Origin: Candidatus Mediterraneibacter avicola
Lineage (GTDB): Bacteria > Bacillota > Clostridia > Lachnospirales > Lachnospiraceae
Reading direction: 5' to 3'
Assembly (NCBI GenBank): GCA_019115385.1
Contig: DXDR01000097.1
Span: 18,694 to 82,693, forward strand
Length of the DNA: 64,000 nt
Shown here: one piece after another, positions 10,982-27,255 of the stretch
Numbering within the stretch: the first letter of the stretch is position 1
Layout of the letters: the number at the start of each line of letters is the position of its first letter
Position numbers and translations under genes: made by a program
Notes under the pieces: generated by a model
Database searches by the model: none
Seen by the model: only the letters and a program-made list of their open reading frames with translations
What the model was told of the DNA's origin: nothing

Positions 10982-11055
10982 CGTGCGATAGAAGATTCGA
11001 ACTCCCGACCTTCTGGTCCGTAGCCAGACGCTCTATCCAGCTGAGCTAATCGCAC
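10982..11055 (-). tRNA. tRNA-Arg (anticodon ACG), CCA not encoded
   Basis: Reverse complement GTGCGATTAGCTCAGCTGGATAGAGCGTCTGGCTACGGACCAGAAGGTCGGGAGTTCGAATCTTCTATCGCACG: 7-bp acceptor stem, D-loop, CT-ACG-GA anticodon loop, GTTCGAAT T-loop. Confidence 0.97.
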
Positions 11056-23475: not shown

Positions 23476-24411
23476 ATGAAGAGGAGAAAGCATCTTACAG
23501 GCGCGCTGGCGGCATTTGTTCTGCTTCCATGTCTGACTGTTACATCCGTTACGGCGGCGCCGTCGGCTGCCGAACTGGAACAGCAGAGGGAAGAGGCGGC
23601 AAACGAGGCGGAAGACCTGCAGACCGAACTGACCGGCCTGCTCAATAAAGTGGGAGAAATGGAAGAAAAGCTGATCGAGACAGGCGAGAAGATCACACAG
23701 GCGGAGGAAGATCTGAAAACAGCGGAGGCGGAGGCAGAGAAACAGTACGAGACAATGAAAATCCGCATCAAATATATGTATGAGGCGGGAGATTCGGACA
23801 TATGGGCGGCTCTTCTTACGGCGGACAGTTTTACAGATTTTTTGAACAAGGCACAATATGCGAGCAATCTTCATTCTTATGACCGGCAGCAGCTGGAAAA
23901 GCTGGTGGAGACCTGGCAGGAGATTGAAAATTTAAAGGAGACTTTGGAGACAGAGCAGGCCAGCCTGGAAGAACAACAGGCGGAATACATAGAGGAGCAG
24001 GAGCGGGTAAATGCGGAACTGGAGGCAAAACGGGCGGAGATCGACGGTTTTGACGAGCAGATACAGGCAGCCGCGGAGGCGGCGGCGCAGGAGGCCCGGG
24101 AGCGGGAAACGCAAAATGAAGATACCGGGGAAAATCAGCAGAGCGTTTCGGATTCGGGCAACAGTCACAACAGCGGCGGCACATCCTCCGGCGGTACTTC
24201 CAATACAGATACATCCGGCGGAAACACATCAGGAAACGGCTCATCAGAGTCAGAAGGGACGTCGGCCGGGAATACTTCTGCTGCACAGATAATTGTAAAT
24301 GCGGCCTACAGTCAGCTGGGGGTGCCTTATGAGTATGGGGGCACGACACCAGGCGTAGGGCTGGACTGCTCCGGCCTGGTACAGGCGGTGCTGGTGATCG
24401 GAATTTTATGA
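23476..24411 (+). pseudogene. Secreted PcsB/CwlO-like coiled-coil protein with a C-terminally truncated NlpC/P60 domain
   Basis: Signal peptide, coiled coil (QYETMKIRIKYMYE), S/G-rich linker. NlpC/P60 starts (AYSQLGVPYEYGG...GLDCSGLVQ) and stops 8 codons later; the catalytic His region is absent in all frames before the next gene. Confidence 0.75.
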
Positions 24412-24519
24412 TATGTCAGGTTTTATTTAATATTGTGTGAAAGAATGATTTATCGACGGCTACCTCTTTTTGTGATATGATTATGTTTGCAGATCATAGA
24501 ACAGAAAGGGGTATTTTCT

Positions 24520-27255
24520 ATGGGAAATACGTCTGAAAATAGACACGGCGGAACGATGGAAAAGCCGCCGGAACATATTAATCTGGGACTCCTTGCCCAT
24601 GTGGACGCAGGGAAGACCACCCTGTCGGAATGTATGCTTTATCTGAGCGGCGTCATCCGGGATATGGGAAGAGTAGATTATGGAAATGCGTTTCTGGATA
24701 CATATGAACTGGAGCGGGAACGTGGTATCACTATATTTTCAAAGCAGGCGGTCCTCACCTGGAAGGGGATGGAGATCACTTTGCTTGATACGCCGGGGCA
24801 CGTGGATTTTTCTGCGGAGATGGAACGGACGCTCCAGGTGCTGGACTGCGCGGTTCTTGTGATCAGCGCGGCAGATGGAGTCCAGGGCCACACAGAGACG
24901 CTCTGGAAACTTTTGAGAAGATATCACATTCCTGTATTTATTTTTGTGAATAAAATGGATCAGGATGGGGCGGATAAGGAGCAAATCCTGAGAGAACTAA
25001 AAGAACGCTTCGGAGAGGGGTGTATTGAATTTTCTTCCATTCTGGCGGAGGGGCAGGCGTCGCCGGAGGAGATGGAAAACCTGGCCGTCTGTGAGGAAAC
25101 CATGATGGAGGAATATCTGGAAACAGGCTGCATCTGCGTTGAGACTATGAGAACTGCGGTGGCGGAAAGGAAGATATTTCCCTGCTGGTTTGGTTCCGCG
25201 CTGCGGGCGGAAGGCGTAGAAAAACTCCTGGACGGTGTGGGAGCGCTTGCACCGGAGAAGCGCTACCCGCAGGCATTTGGAGCAAAGGTGTATAAGATCG
25301 CCCGGGACAGTCAGGGAAACAGGCTGACTTATCTGAAAGTGACAGGGGGAAGCCTGCGGGTAAAAGAAGTCCTTGCAGATACAGGGGAAAAGGTCAATCA
25401 GATCCGGATTTATTCCGGGGAAAAATATGAGCTTGTGCAGAAGGTATCCGCCGGGCAGGTCTGTGCAGTGACAGGGCCGGAACAGACACGGCCGGGCCAG
25501 GGACTGGGAGCGGAGAAGGCTTCCGAACTTCCTGTACTGGAGCCGGTGCTTACCTATTCTCTTGAACTGCCTGGGGACTGTGACGTACACCGGATGCTGC
25601 GGGATCTTCGGAAACTGGAAGAGGAGGAACCGGAACTTAACATTGTCTGGGAAGAGGAAACAGGAGAAATATCCGTGCGCCTTATGGGCGAGGTGCAGAC
25701 AGAAATTCTCCGAAACATGATCAAAGAGCGGTACGGAGTGTGTGTGCAGTTCGGAGAAGGAAAGATCGTGTACAAAGAAACCGTTCGGGAACCTGTTGAG
25801 GGGGTAGGGCATTATGAACCGCTGCGGCATTATGCAGAGGTCCATCTCCTCCTGGAGCCAGGAGAGAGAGGCTCGGGCCTGCAGTTTGCCTCCGCCTGCA
25901 GCGAGGATGTGCTGGACAGAAACTGGCAGCGCCTGGTTTTGGCCCATCTGGAGGAAAAGCCGCACAGAGGAGTCTTGACCGGAGCGCAGATCACAGATAT
26001 GAAGATCACGCTGCTCTCAGGCAGATCCCACCAGAAGCACACGGAAGGGGGAGATTTCCGGCAGGCTACATACCGGGCCGTGCGGCAGGGACTTATGAAA
26101 GCGCACAGCATCCTTTTGGAGCCCTGGTATGAATTCCGTATGGAGATGCCGACCGAGTGCGTGGGGAGAGCTATGGCGGATGTGCAGAGAATGTATGGAA
26201 GATTTGACCCTCCCCTGACGGAGGAAAACCGGGCCGTTCTTTCAGGGAGCGCGCCGGCAGCGTCTATGAGAGGATACCAGACGGAATTTGCCTCCTATAC
26301 GGGAGGGCGCGGCAGACTGTTCTGCTCTCTTAAGGGGTACGATGTCTGCCATAATGAAGAAGAGGCGGTGGCTGCCTGCGGATATGACCCGGCGGCTGAC
26401 CTGGAAAATCCGGCGGATTCTGTATTCTGCGCTCATGGAGCAGGATTTGTCGTGCCCTGGGATCAGGTAGAAGAATATATGCACATGGAAAACGCCTATG
26501 ACCGGGGAGAAAAGGTAGAGGAAGCATTTCCGGCTGTTGTGCAGAAATATACCGGATCCAGAATCGAGCTCACACAGGAAGAACTGGACGCCATTTATGC
26601 GCCTTCGCCGGATCCGGTGAAGCGGAAAGACAACCGGGGCGCGGTTACGGTGCGGGCGTCTTCTGCTGATGAGTCAGGAGCCGGAAAGAACGGGCGGACA
26701 AAAGGCAGAGGAGGTGGAGAGGAGTACCTTCTCGTTGACGGATATAATATTATTTTCGCCTGGGATGAGTTGAAAGAACTGGCTGAGGCGGACATTTCCG
26801 GCGCCAGAGGCAGGCTGATGGACATCCTGTGCAACTATCAGGGATATAGAAAATGTACGCTGATCCTTGTGTTTGACGCGTATAAAGTAGAAGGAAATCC
26901 CGGAGAAGTTTTGAAGTATCATAATATTTATGTGGTTTATACAAAGGAAGCCGAGACAGCGGACCAGTACATTGAAAAAACCGTGCGGAAAATGGCGCGC
27001 CGCCATGAGGTGACTGTGGCAACTTCGGATGCACTGGAGCAGGTCATTATCCTCGGACAGGGGGCAAACAGGCTTTCGGCCGCCGGACTCAAAGAAGAAG
27101 TCGAGATAGCTCTGAAGGAAATCAGGGGAGAGCATCTTGGCCAGTCAAACCTGCGAAATTATCTTTTTGATTATCTCAGCAGAGAAGACGCAGGAGAAAT
27201 GGAAAAAATCAGACTCGGACAGCAGAAGGAGCGGCAGCCGGAAAAAAGAAATTAA
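24520..27255 (+). CDS. TetM/EF-G-like translational GTPase fused to a C-terminal NYN (YacP/Rae1) ribonuclease domain
   Basis: LAHVDAGKTT, RGITI, DTPGHVDF, NKMD, GSAL; EF-G domains III-V (LLEPWY); NYN domain from about 26725 (YLLVDGYNII...VFDAY...ETADQYIE...VATSD). Confidence 0.9.
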   Translation: MGNTSENRHGGTMEKPPEHINLGLLAHVDAGKTTLSECMLYLSGVIRDMGRVDYGNAFLDTYELERERGITIFSKQAVLTWKGMEITLLDTPGHVDFSAEMERTLQVLDCAVLVISAADGVQGHTETLWKLLRRYHIPVFIFVNKMDQDGADKEQILRELKERFGEGCIEFSSILAEGQASPEEMENLAVCEETMMEEYLETGCICVETMRTAVAERKIFPCWFGSALRAEGVEKLLDGVGALAPEKRYPQAFGAKVYKIARDSQGNRLTYLKVTGGSLRVKEVLADTGEKVNQIRIYSGEKYELVQKVSAGQVCAVTGPEQTRPGQGLGAEKASELPVLEPVLTYSLELPGDCDVHRMLRDLRKLEEEEPELNIVWEEETGEISVRLMGEVQTEILRNMIKERYGVCVQFGEGKIVYKETVREPVEGVGHYEPLRHYAEVHLLLEPGERGSGLQFASACSEDVLDRNWQRLVLAHLEEKPHRGVLTGAQITDMKITLLSGRSHQKHTEGGDFRQATYRAVRQGLMKAHSILLEPWYEFRMEMPTECVGRAMADVQRMYGRFDPPLTEENRAVLSGSAPAASMRGYQTEFASYTGGRGRLFCSLKGYDVCHNEEEAVAACGYDPAADLENPADSVFCAHGAGFVVPWDQVEEYMHMENAYDRGEKVEEAFPAVVQKYTGSRIELTQEELDAIYAPSPDPVKRKDNRGAVTVRASSADESGAGKNGRTKGRGGGEEYLLVDGYNIIFAWDELKELAEADISGARGRLMDILCNYQGYRKCTLILVFDAYKVEGNPGEVLKYHNIYVVYTKEAETADQYIEKTVRKMARRHEVTVATSDALEQVIILGQGANRLSAAGLKEEVEIALKEIRGEHLGQSNLRNYLFDYLSREDAGEMEKIRLGQQKERQPEKRN

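What the first reader, a model, noticed from the sequence alone, without database searches (positions are those of the whole stretch)
24520..27255. Translational GTPase fused to a Rae1/YacP ribosome-dependent RNase: a candidate GTP-gated mRNA cleavage or ribosome-rescue factor, not a true Tet resistance gene
Seen: intact G1-G5 motifs and EF-G-like domains to domain V, a conserved DSVFCAHGAG segment, a charged linker, then an NYN domain with intact acidic residues (LVDGYN, VFD, ETADQYIE, TSD). In domain IV, the loop that reads YYSPVST in TetM/TetO is replaced by SHQKHTE. Known: that loop is needed to eject tetracycline, and B. subtilis Rae1 (YacP) cleaves mRNA on translating or stalled ribosomes. 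Inference: a single polypeptide that docks at the factor-binding site and delivers a nuclease to ribosome-bound mRNA. The architecture tends to be auto-labelled 'TetM-like', and I know of no functional characterisation.
Basis: partly seen in the sequence, partly recalled or inferred. Interest (0 to 1): 0.72.

Follow-up and report, generated by a model that had tools for sequence, protein, structure and literature searches.

The report
Tet-like ribosomal GTPase fused to Rae1 nuclease
This gut-bacterium gene joins a ribosome-binding GTPase that resembles tetracycline-protection proteins to a Rae1-type RNA-cutting enzyme by a floppy tether; the fusion is real and common in Clostridia, was noted in print in 2015 and 2017, and has never been tested, so it is a good but not new lead on how bacteria cut mRNA on stuck ribosomes.

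Summary
ORF 24520-27255 (+) encodes 911 aa: an intact translational GTPase with EF-G-like domains II-V, a folded 50-aa C-terminal extension (SVFCAHGAG), a disordered 60-147-aa linker, and a Rae1/YacP NYN nuclease with all four catalytic Asp. It is not an artefact. At least 590 species-level genomes hold a relative, and the 80 closest are all fused.

It is not a typical Tet protein. It is 31-32% identical to TetM/TetW and scores 439 bits against the 775-bit tet_protect cut-off. It has a different domain IV loop III and lacks the TetM C-terminal helix. It sits in a chromosomal, syntenic context with no mobile-element genes.

Three points are new here. The same GTPase subfamily occurs unfused across Lactobacillaceae. 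Domain IV is its most conserved part. The nuclease hangs on a flexible tether.

The most likely function is inferred, not shown: GTP-dependent docking on stalled ribosomes that brings a Rae1-type nuclease to the mRNA, feeding tmRNA rescue.

The architecture was published by Atkinson (2015) and Matelska (2017). I found no functional study. Whether these genomes also carry a separate rae1 remains unresolved.

The parts
24453..24481 (+). Promoter-like site (TCGACG, 17 nt, TG-extended TATGAT)
   Evidence: Consensus scan. A pattern match only, not evidence of function.
24506..24512 (+). Shine-Dalgarno AAAGGGG, 7 nt before the ATG
   Evidence: Sequence read.
24520..27255 (+). Whole coding sequence, 911 aa plus stop: Tet-like translational GTPase fused to a Rae1/YacP NYN nuclease
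24571..25251 (+). G domain (aa 18-244) with G1 AHVDAGKTT, G2 RGITI, G3 DTPGH (catalytic His94), G4 NKMD and G5 GSAL; short G' insert as in Tet proteins
   Evidence: Pfam. Motifs invariant or nearly so in 82 members. TetM aligns in one stretch and EF-G in two.
25282..25755 (+). Domains II and III (aa 255-412)
   Evidence: Pfam. AF2 pLDDT 71-94.
25759..26103 (+). Domain IV (aa 414-528), the most conserved part of the family; signatures EGVGHYEPLRHYAEVH and GRxHQKHTEGGDFRQA
   Evidence: Mean top-residue frequency 0.85, with 57% of columns at least 95% conserved, against 0.70 for the G domain.
26026..26046 (+). SHQKHTE (aa 503-509), aligned to the YYSPVST loop III of TetM/TetW
   Evidence: Alignment A1. 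H504 in 81/82 and H507 in 82/82 members.
26113..26358 (+). Domain V (aa 532-613)
   Evidence: Pfam EFG_C.
26359..26502 (+). Family-specific C-terminal extension (aa 614-661): helix, SVFCAHGAGFVV beta-hairpin, helix. It replaces the TetM C-terminal helix and is shared with the unfused Lactobacillaceae proteins.
   Evidence: Alignment A1. AF2 pLDDT 82-90. C610 in 81/82, C637 in 82/82, W647 in 82/82, H655 in 81/82. SVFC present in 117/117 unfused proteins.
26503..26718 (+). Disordered charged linker (aa 662-733) with one short semi-conserved motif (EELDAIY here; family consensus about ExEL.xI(F/Y)xRT(F/Y)GP)
   Evidence: AF2 pLDDT below 50 over most of it (aa 667-732). Conservation 0.29. Linker length 60-147 aa across the family.
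26719..27141 (+). NYN_YacP (Rae1-type) nuclease domain (aa 734-874) with catalytic D740, D786, D815 and D837
   Evidence: Pfam. Match to PDB 5mq8/5mq9. Asp residues kept in 81/81 fused members. AF2 pLDDT mostly 75-92.
27142..27252 (+). Poorly conserved C-terminal tail (aa 875-911)
   Evidence: Conservation 0.29 and 35% gaps.

Best explanation
The gene encodes a chromosomal housekeeping-type translation factor, not an acquired resistance gene. An EF-G/Tet-like GTPase binds the ribosomal factor site in its GTP form, with its highly conserved, family-specific domain IV reaching toward the decoding centre. It carries a catalytically competent Rae1-type NYN endonuclease on a 60-147-residue flexible tether.

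The most likely job is as follows. The GTPase recognises ribosomes that are stalled, most plausibly with a vacant or blocked A site or within a collided pair. This raises the local concentration of the nuclease, so that the mRNA is cut at the edge of the stalled ribosome or between collided ribosomes. The upstream ribosome is then left on a truncated mRNA for tmRNA rescue, as described for stand-alone Rae1 in B. subtilis. GTP hydrolysis then releases the factor.

Shown here: the domain composition, the intact catalytic motifs in both enzymes, the folded-tether-folded organisation (predicted), the strong purifying selection, the wide vertical distribution, and the existence of the same GTPase without the nuclease in Lactobacillaceae.

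Inferred: ribosome binding, mRNA as the substrate, which ribosomal state is recognised, and the link to tmRNA.
For: - Both enzymatic halves are intact and conserved. G1-G4 and His94 are invariant or nearly so, and the four NYN Asp are kept in 81/81 fused members.
- The NYN half is a close relative of the only characterised member: Rae1 5mq8/5mq9 at E 7e-23, and 43% identity to the C. difficile canonical copy.
- Rae1 cuts mRNA in a translation-dependent way 12 nt upstream of the A-site codon of stalled ribosomes (PMC12407103) and feeds collided ribosomes to trans-translation (PMC13622287).
- The GTPase half has the five-domain EF-G/TetM fold.
- Domain IV, the part that reaches the decoding centre in EF-G and Tet proteins, is the most conserved region: 0.85 against 0.70 for the G domain.
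- AF2 with a diverse alignment gives two confident modules joined by a linker whose pLDDT is below 50. The linker is never shorter than 60 aa in 77 members.
- The fusion is fixed over a wide range of Clostridia. At least 590 species-level genomes hold a relative, the best 80 are all fused, and one of those is split by a frameshift.
- The locus is syntenic between the window and Mediterraneibacter glycyrrhizinilyticus. It has no mobile-element genes and no conserved operon partner.
- The same GTPase subfamily, with the same domain IV and SVFCAHGAG signatures, is unfused in Lactobacillaceae. A fusion in one lineage of two proteins that are separate in another is the classic sign of a functional link.
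Against: - No experiment exists for any member, fused or unfused.
- B. subtilis Rae1 works in a genome that has no such GTPase: only EF-Tu, EF-G, IF2, LepA and TypA appear in Atkinson's table. The GTPase is therefore not a general requirement for Rae1 action.
- In Lactobacillaceae the unfused gene is not next to a NYN gene.
- The Rae1 cleavage site lies at the mRNA exit side, far from the factor-binding site of the same ribosome. The model needs the tether to reach round the 30S subunit, or needs the factor to sit on the neighbouring collided ribosome. Neither is shown.
- AF2 gives no information on docking.
- No RNA-seq evidence of expression was obtained.
- I could not establish whether the fusion replaces or supplements a stand-alone rae1.
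Confidence: 0.45

Rival explanations
1. It is a working tetracycline ribosomal protection protein. Domain IV dislodges tetracycline as in Tet(M)/Tet(O), and the nuclease is an accessory, for example clearing mRNAs from drug-stalled ribosomes.
For: - The best NCBIfam match is the tet_protect model, aligned end to end (1-614 of 614, 439 bits), ahead of the EF-G models.
- It has a Tet-like short G' and aligns to TetM in a single stretch.
- The loop aligned to loop III has the same length as in TetM.
- Atkinson 2015 proposed a resistance role involving RNase activity.
Against: - 439 bits is far below the curated 775-bit cut-off.
- It is 31-32% identical to TetM/TetW, which are 70% identical to each other.
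- Loop III is entirely different, including the YY pair, and the C-terminal helix that matters for Tet(M) function is replaced by an unrelated mini-domain.
- The context is chromosomal, syntenic and free of mobile-element genes, and the family is present in hundreds of species. Acquired tet genes instead sit on transposons, plasmids and prophages.
- The unfused orthologue is on 33 L. salivarius megaplasmids, including UCC118. A 2026 paper calls UCC118 tetracycline-susceptible and free of tet genes (PMC13550537), but its cited source does not mention the strain, so this point is weak.
Confidence: 0.1
2. The nuclease targets ribosomal RNA or tRNA rather than mRNA. The GTPase docks on defective, idle or immature ribosomes, and the NYN domain cuts rRNA. 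The purpose would be ribosome quality control, turnover during starvation or sporulation, or a maturation step.
For: - YacP was first predicted to act on rRNA/tRNA because of its operon with mrnC (Mini-III) and rlmB. That context is seen again here in C. difficile (PMC5499597).
- A factor-site-bound protein with a 60-147-aa tether can reach many rRNA surfaces.
Against: - The only characterised family member, Rae1, cuts mRNA, in a translation- and stall-dependent way.
- The fused NYN keeps high similarity to Rae1.
- The gene is not in an rRNA-processing operon.
Confidence: 0.2
3. The two halves work independently, and the fusion only co-regulates or co-localises them loosely. The GTPase is a stand-alone factor that remodels or releases stalled ribosomes, as it must be in Lactobacillaceae. 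The NYN domain is simply the cell's Rae1.
For: - The GTPase exists and is conserved without NYN in Lactobacillaceae.
- By identity, these unfused proteins fall inside the range of the fused ones: 49-52% against 43-44% for distant fused members.
- The linker is poorly conserved.
- A stand-alone NYN very close to the fused type exists (P0182, 58% identical).
Against: - The fusion is kept as one reading frame in 79 of the 80 closest genomes across several Clostridia families.
- A short linker motif is conserved (E688 in 77/82, I692 in 79/82).
- The minimum linker length is maintained. Both features suggest selection on the tethered arrangement.
Confidence: 0.15

Closest known systems
Rae1 (YacP), ribosome-associated endoribonuclease of Bacillus subtilis (PDB 5MQ8/5MQ9)
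   Same: Same Pfam family (NYN_YacP, 173 bits). Roughly 45% identity over 134 aa by eye from the alignment. The same four catalytic Asp. Expected to be a metal-dependent endoRNase acting on ribosome-bound RNA.
   Different: Rae1 is a stand-alone protein of about 170-180 aa. In C. difficile the canonical copy is encoded in the mrnC-rlmB-yacP-sigH cluster. Here the domain is the C-terminal module of a 911-aa GTPase in an unrelated locus. The fused NYN domains group together (52-66% identity to the window's) and are only 43% identical to the canonical C. difficile copy. B. subtilis has no partner GTPase of this kind.
Tet(M)/Tet(O)/Tet(W) tetracycline ribosomal protection proteins
   Same: Five-domain EF-G-like translational GTPase of about 610 aa with a short G' insert. 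The best-scoring NCBIfam model is the Tet one. Atkinson 2015 classed it in the 'Tet' subfamily.
   Different: 31-32% identity. Well below the curated cut-off. Different loops at the tip of domain IV. The TetM C-terminal helix is replaced by a 50-aa SVFCAHGAG mini-domain. Not on mobile elements. Carries a nuclease.
SmrB (E. coli) and Cue2/NONU-1 (eukaryotes), endonucleases recruited to collided ribosomes
   Same: The proposed logic is the same: a nuclease brought to stalled or collided ribosomes cuts the mRNA so that upstream ribosomes can be rescued (described in PMC12407103 and PMC13622287).
   Different: Unrelated nuclease fold (SMR against NYN). Those enzymes are recruited by their own N-terminal hooks or by ubiquitin-binding domains, not by a covalently attached GTPase. 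No GTP gating is known for them.
Unfused 'SVFCAHGAG' Tet-like GTPases of Lactobacillaceae (annotated as EF-G, TetM family or 'translation factor GTPase family protein')
   Same: 49-52% identical over aa 18-661. Same domain IV signatures (EPLRHY, H(T/S)xGGDFR) and the same C-terminal extension. Also uncharacterised, monocistronic and in variable chromosomal contexts.
   Different: They end 13-40 residues after the start of the SVFC motif and have no linker or NYN domain.

Membership tests
Tet ribosomal protection proteins (TetM/O/W/S/Q, Otr(A)) | EF-G-like translational GTPase with domains G, II, III, IV and V and a short G' | tested here: met
   Pfam domains. Single-stretch alignment to TetM 3j9y/3j25 (270 bits). 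Foldseek matches to EF-G-type folds.
Tet ribosomal protection proteins (TetM/O/W/S/Q, Otr(A)) | Score at or above the curated cut-off of NCBIfam NF012153 tet_protect (775 bits) | tested here: not met
   439.3 bits. The unfused L. salivarius relative scores 379 bits.
Tet ribosomal protection proteins (TetM/O/W/S/Q, Otr(A)) | Domain IV loop III of the TetM type (…LYYSPVST…), the loop most important for displacing tetracycline | tested here: not met
   It aligns to GRSHQKHTEGG. The length is the same but the YYSPVST residues are not shared. The loop's importance is taken from PMC4750697.
Tet ribosomal protection proteins (TetM/O/W/S/Q, Otr(A)) | C-terminal extension with the short TetM helix | tested here: not met
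   The TetM/TetW tail (PRRPNSRIDKVRYMFNKIT) has no counterpart. In its place is a different 50-aa extension followed by linker and NYN.
Tet ribosomal protection proteins (TetM/O/W/S/Q, Otr(A)) | Confers tetracycline resistance; GTP-dependent release of tetracycline from the ribosome | not testable with these tools
   Needs MIC and biochemical assays.
Rae1/YacP NYN endoribonucleases | Pfam PF05991 NYN_YacP above the gathering score | tested here: met
   173.3 bits against 24.6, covering profile positions 1-165 of 166.
Rae1/YacP NYN endoribonucleases | Four conserved acidic active-site residues (Rae1 D7, D53, D81, D104) | tested here: met
   D740, D786, D815 and D837 align to them and are kept in 81/81 fused members.
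Rae1/YacP NYN endoribonucleases | Stand-alone protein of about 170 aa, typically in the mrnC-rlmB-yacP-sigH neighbourhood | tested here: not met
   It is fused to a GTPase. The neighbours are unrelated. The canonical context was seen in C. difficile for comparison.
Rae1/YacP NYN endoribonucleases | Translation-dependent cleavage of mRNA at stalled ribosomes | not testable with these tools
   Needs in vivo or in vitro cleavage assays.
Elongation factor G | Score at or above the EF-G equivalog cut-off (TIGR00484, 659 bits) and the EF-G domain IV loop I (…GGRGQYGH…) | tested here: not met
   330 bits. In the phmmer alignment to T. thermophilus EF-G the loop is 4 residues shorter and reads EPLRHYAEVH.
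Un-named 'SVFCAHGAG' Tet-like GTPase subfamily (fused in Clostridia, unfused in Lactobacillaceae) | EGVGH(Y/F)EPLRHY and H(T/S)xGGDFR in domain IV, plus a C-terminal S(V)FCxHGxG…V.W…H extension | tested here: met
   All are present in the window protein. They are nearly invariant in 82 fused-type sequences and in 94-117 of 117 unfused proteins.

The most novel reading that the evidence does not exclude
The GTPase is a dedicated sensor of stalled or collided ribosomes that licenses Rae1-type mRNA cleavage. In Clostridia it works in cis through a tether. In Lactobacillaceae the unfused GTPase works in trans with the stand-alone Rae1. That would define a GTP-gated bacterial no-go-decay factor with no characterised counterpart, and would show how Rae1 can be recruited to ribosomes.
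Probability: 0.25. Interest if true: 0.8.

Novelty: new variant of a known kind. Interest (0 to 1): 0.55.

Why it matters
Rae1 was tied to rescue of stalled and collided ribosomes only in 2025-26, and how it finds those ribosomes is still open. A natural fusion that is fixed across much of the Clostridia, including dominant gut Lachnospiraceae and Oscillospiraceae, links a Rae1-type nuclease to a ribosomal GTPase. That gives a concrete, testable hypothesis for recruitment and for GTP control of mRNA cleavage. It also nominates the unfused Lactobacillaceae GTPase as a candidate partner or parallel factor.

There is a practical side too. Thousands of these genes are annotated as tetracycline resistance proteins or as EF-G. 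Showing that they are a separate housekeeping subfamily would remove false positives from resistome surveys and from probiotic safety screens.

Tried and rejected
1. AF2 on a shallow alignment of homologues at least 68% identical gave pLDDT 57, with the extension and NYN domain below 50. I discarded it. A rerun with 50%-cluster representatives gave pLDDT 79.7.

2. 'Stand-alone' NYN proteins close to the fused type: the P0144/P0286 cluster turned out to be the fused gene split by a run of N in a scaffold. Only P0182 looks genuine.

3. Co-occurrence with a separate rae1: a search with the C. difficile canonical Rae1 returned only Peptostreptococcaceae. The Monoglobus 517-kb record has sigH without yacP, and the fusion is its only NYN hit, but it is only part of a genome. 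This stays unresolved.

4. Conserved gene neighbourhood: none was found among 80 loci. The recurrent '67-loci cluster' is just antisense ORFs inside the gene.

5. Phage origin: two GenBank 'Bacteriophage sp.' records carry full fusions. One of them has ordinary bacterial neighbours such as dapF, ABC binding proteins and LysR, so I rejected this.

6. Anti-phage defence: there is no meaningful PADLOC match.

7. A Cys/His metal site in the C-terminal extension (C610, C637, H639, H655): H639 is G, Q or N in several published members, so the idea is weak and I kept it only as a note.

8. Expression: the window sequence is found only in chicken and other gut DNA metagenomes. A Hungatella homologue gave only trace hits in wastewater RNA runs.

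9. No regulatory RNA near the gene. Rfam finds only a tRNA elsewhere in the window.

10. NCBIfam has no model that matches the NYN domain, so no curated Rae1 cut-off could be applied.
Full report
**What is there.** The window holds a single long ORF on the + strand, 24487 (TTG) or 24520 (ATG) to 27255. That gives 911 aa. Pfam finds GTP_EFTU at aa 18-244, EF-G domain 2 at 255-326, EFG_III at 341-412, EFG_IV at 414-528, EFG_C at 532-613, and NYN_YacP at 737-898 (E 5.5e-51, 173 bits against a 24.6-bit cut-off). The N-terminal 613 residues match solved EF-G (278 bits, in two stretches) and TetM (270 bits, in one stretch) about equally. The C-terminal part matches only B. subtilis YacP/Rae1, PDB 5mq8/5mq9, at E 7e-23.
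- the G motifs;
- the SVFCAHGAG segment;
- a charged linker;
- the four acidic NYN motifs (D740, D786, D815, D837, aligned to Rae1 D7, D53, D81, D104);
- SHQKHTE aligned, without gaps, to the YYSPVST loop of TetM and TetW.

**It is not an artefact.** All 120 best database hits (68-98% identical, about 870-1040 aa) carry the same set of domains. The 80 closest come from Lachnospiraceae, Oscillospiraceae, Anaerovorax, Desulfitobacterium, Hungatella, Blautia and others. All 80 have the NYN domain downstream of the GTPase, 79 in one reading frame and one split by a frameshift. The nearest genome is a chicken-gut MAG, Candidatus Mediterraneibacter merdigallinarum (87% over the query region), and the window sequence itself is found in chicken-gut metagenomes.

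**Genomic context.** The neighbours are ordinary: a PLP-dependent sulfhydrylase, a LysR regulator, phosphopentomutase and a PcsB-like protein upstream; a zinc-ribbon/CD225 membrane protein, DUF2752, two ABC exporters, MarR and pyrF downstream. In M. glycyrrhizinilyticus the gene is followed by an ECF S-component, zinc-ribbon/CD225, DUF2752 and pyrF. The locus is therefore syntenic and vertically inherited. No gene is conserved next to it across the 80 loci. There are no mobile-element genes in the window around it, and no defence-system match. Two GenBank 'Bacteriophage sp.' records that carry the fusion are unverified virome scaffolds, and the one I examined has bacterial housekeeping neighbours.

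**Relation to Tet proteins and EF-G.** The best NCBIfam model is tet_protect, aligned end to end, but at 439 bits against a curated cut-off of 775. The EF-G models score 330-360 bits, also far below their cut-offs. The GTPase is 31-32% identical to TetM and TetW, which are 70% identical to each other. Three determinants differ from TetM/TetW in the alignment:
- Loop III is GRSHQKHTEGG instead of GLYYSPVSTPA.
- The PPNPFWAS loop is replaced by PLRHYAEV.
- The short C-terminal helix is replaced by an unrelated 50-residue extension.

Loop III is described as the functionally most important loop of Tet(M). Deleting L505 abolishes activity on tetracycline, and the C-terminal helix is important for function. 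However, S508A/P509A/V510A mutants remain active (PMC4750697). The sequence evidence therefore speaks against a Tet function without excluding it. Against EF-G, the domain IV loop carrying GGRGQYGH is four residues shorter and reads EPLRHYAEVH, so a translocase role is also unlikely.

**A separate GTPase subfamily with two architectures.** A tblastn search of plasmids found a 644-aa protein on Ligilactobacillus salivarius megaplasmids. It is 49% identical over aa 18-661 and stops just after the SVFCAHGAGY.V.W motif. Searching with it showed a large unfused clade of 640-665 aa, chromosomal in Companilactobacillus, Paucilactobacillus, Levilactobacillus, Loigolactobacillus, Lactiplantibacillus and Pediococcus. 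All 117 of these proteins keep the G motifs, EPLRHY and SVFC; 116 keep FCxHGxG..V.W; and 94 keep H(T/S)xGGDFR. They are monocistronic in variable contexts, with no NYN gene nearby. By identity they fall inside the spread of the fused proteins: 49-52% to the window protein, against 43-44% for distant fused representatives. So there is one subfamily, distinct from the Tet proteins, fused in Clostridia and unfused in Lactobacillaceae. The direction of change (gain or loss of the nuclease) is not resolved.

**Conservation and predicted structure.** I aligned 82 family members: the window protein, 79 genome loci, Monoglobus and L. salivarius. Domain IV is the most conserved region, with a mean top-residue frequency of 0.85 and 57% of columns at least 95% conserved. 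The other regions score as follows:

| Region | Mean top-residue frequency |
|---|---|
| Domain IV | 0.85 |
| G domain | 0.70 |
| C-terminal extension | 0.70 |
| NYN domain | 0.72 |
| Linker | 0.29 |
| C-terminal tail | 0.29 |

A first AF2 run on a shallow alignment was unusable. A second run with 50%-cluster representatives gave mean pLDDT 79.7. In that model the GTPase body is confident, and the extension folds as helix, beta-hairpin (SVFCA/GAGFV), helix with pLDDT 82-90. Residues 667-732 have pLDDT below 50, and the NYN domain scores mostly 75-92. The linker is 60-147 residues long across the family (median 77) and is rich in K, R, E, G, S and P. It has one short semi-conserved motif, ExEL.xI(F/Y)xRT(F/Y)GP. 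The picture is a ribosome-binding body with a nuclease on a long flexible tether. The tool does not report inter-domain confidence, so nothing can be said about docking.

**What is known about the parts.** Rae1 cleaves B. subtilis mRNAs in a translation-dependent way. [quoted passage not shown] The same work suggested a possible requirement for collided ribosomes (PMC12407103). A September 2026 preprint shows that tmRNA tagging induced by collisions depends on Rae1, and that Rae1 is present in more than 87% of Firmicutes genomes surveyed (PMC13622287). Neither paper mentions GTPase fusions. [quoted passage not shown] Both left the function open. Four further literature searches found no characterisation.

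**Most likely mechanism (inferred).** The GTP-bound factor binds the ribosomal factor site. Its conserved domain IV probes the decoding region and so selects a particular ribosomal state, most plausibly a stalled ribosome with an empty or blocked A site, or the trailing ribosome of a collided pair. The tethered NYN domain then cuts the mRNA at the ribosome's edge or between collided ribosomes, creating a tmRNA substrate. GTP hydrolysis releases the factor. In my judgement, from general knowledge of ribosome architecture, the reported Rae1 cut site lies on the mRNA exit side, far from the factor site of the same ribosome. The tether, never shorter than 60 residues, or action across a disome interface is therefore an essential part of the model. 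I put this reading at about 0.45.

**Rivals.**
- rRNA or tRNA as the substrate, for ribosome quality control or turnover: 0.2.
- Two independent activities merely linked together: 0.15.
- A true tetracycline protection protein: 0.1.

**Evidence against an obligatory GTPase-Rae1 partnership.** B. subtilis has Rae1 but no such GTPase. In Lactobacillaceae the unfused gene is not linked to a NYN gene.

**Open point.** I could not determine whether fusion-bearing genomes also keep a stand-alone rae1. Apparent stand-alone relatives were mostly fragments or scaffold-gap artefacts. One genuine 172-aa protein, 58% identical, sits after spoIIAA-spoIIAB-sigF in an uncultured Clostridia genome. A search with the canonical C. 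difficile protein returned only Peptostreptococcaceae. In a 517-kb Monoglobus record, sigH is not preceded by yacP and the fusion is the only NYN hit, but that record is only part of a genome.

**Verdict.** It rests on an older model of where Rae1 cuts, and its novelty is overstated, because the architecture is in the literature. The added value here is threefold:
- the GTPase is shown to belong to its own widespread subfamily, with an unfused sister form;
- domain IV is its most constrained part;
- the nuclease is predicted to be flexibly tethered.

Together with the new Rae1 biology, these points turn an old annotation curiosity into a sharply testable hypothesis.

Noticed in passing
window 23476-24411 (+): The ORF just upstream has a PcsB-type coiled coil and a Ser/Gly/Thr-rich region. 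It ends about 20 residues into what looks like an NlpC/P60 catalytic motif (…GLDCSGLVQAV…). The hydrolase domain seems cut off about 110 nt before the GTPase gene, which suggests a truncated or frameshifted cell-wall hydrolase gene.
   Followed up: partly
L001:5400-5796 (L. salivarius megaplasmid, divergent from the unfused GTPase gene): The unfused orthologue sits next to a second copy of rpsN (ribosomal protein S14) and a 35-aa 'putative metal homeostasis protein'. This pairing is reminiscent of zinc-starvation ribosomal paralogue loci. It was not seen in three other Lactobacillaceae loci.
   Followed up: partly
window 25759-26103 and 26359-26502 (protein aa 431-507 and 610-655): Five nearly invariant histidines cluster in the two conserved domain IV segments (H431, H437, H442, H504, H507). 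C610, C637 and H655 are nearly invariant in the C-terminal extension. A metal site is conceivable, but H639 varies (G/Q/N) in published members, so the idea is unproven.
   Followed up: partly
L089 (GenBank MT835563.1) and L090 (MT835514.1): Two 'UNVERIFIED: Bacteriophage sp.' virome scaffolds in the phage collection carry full-length fusions (56% and 51% identical). L089 has bacterial housekeeping neighbours and no obvious phage genes, so it looks like bacterial DNA in a virome. L090 was not examined.
   Followed up: partly
L085:3500-6555: A protein cluster that looks like a stand-alone 184-aa NYN protein (seen on more than 100 contigs) is really the C-terminal end of a fused gene, cut off by a run of N in the linker region of the scaffold. 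The low-complexity linker seems prone to assembly gaps and split gene calls.
   Followed up: yes
L091:4203-6519: A genuine stand-alone NYN_YacP gene (172 aa, 58% identical to the fused domain) lies directly after spoIIAA-spoIIAB-sigF in an uncultured Clostridia genome, rather than in the canonical rlmB-sigH position.
   Followed up: no
L103:4313-4821 (A. rectalis) and L107:7027-7621 (Levilactobacillus zymae): In two unrelated genomes the GTPase gene lies next to a toxin-antitoxin pair: BrnT/CopG-family upstream in A. rectalis, and YafQ/RelB downstream in L. zymae. With only two cases this is probably coincidence.
   Followed up: no
window 10982-11055 (-): A single tRNA-Arg(ACG) gene. It is the only Rfam or ARAGORN hit in the 64-kb window.
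   Followed up: yes
L. salivarius UCC118 pMP118, NC_007930.1:226540-228474: The unfused gene is annotated 'TetM/TetW/TetO/TetS family tetracycline resistance ribosomal protection protein' on the megaplasmid of a probiotic strain that a 2026 paper describes as tetracycline-susceptible and free of tet genes. The reference that paper cites for this does not mention the strain.
   Followed up: partly
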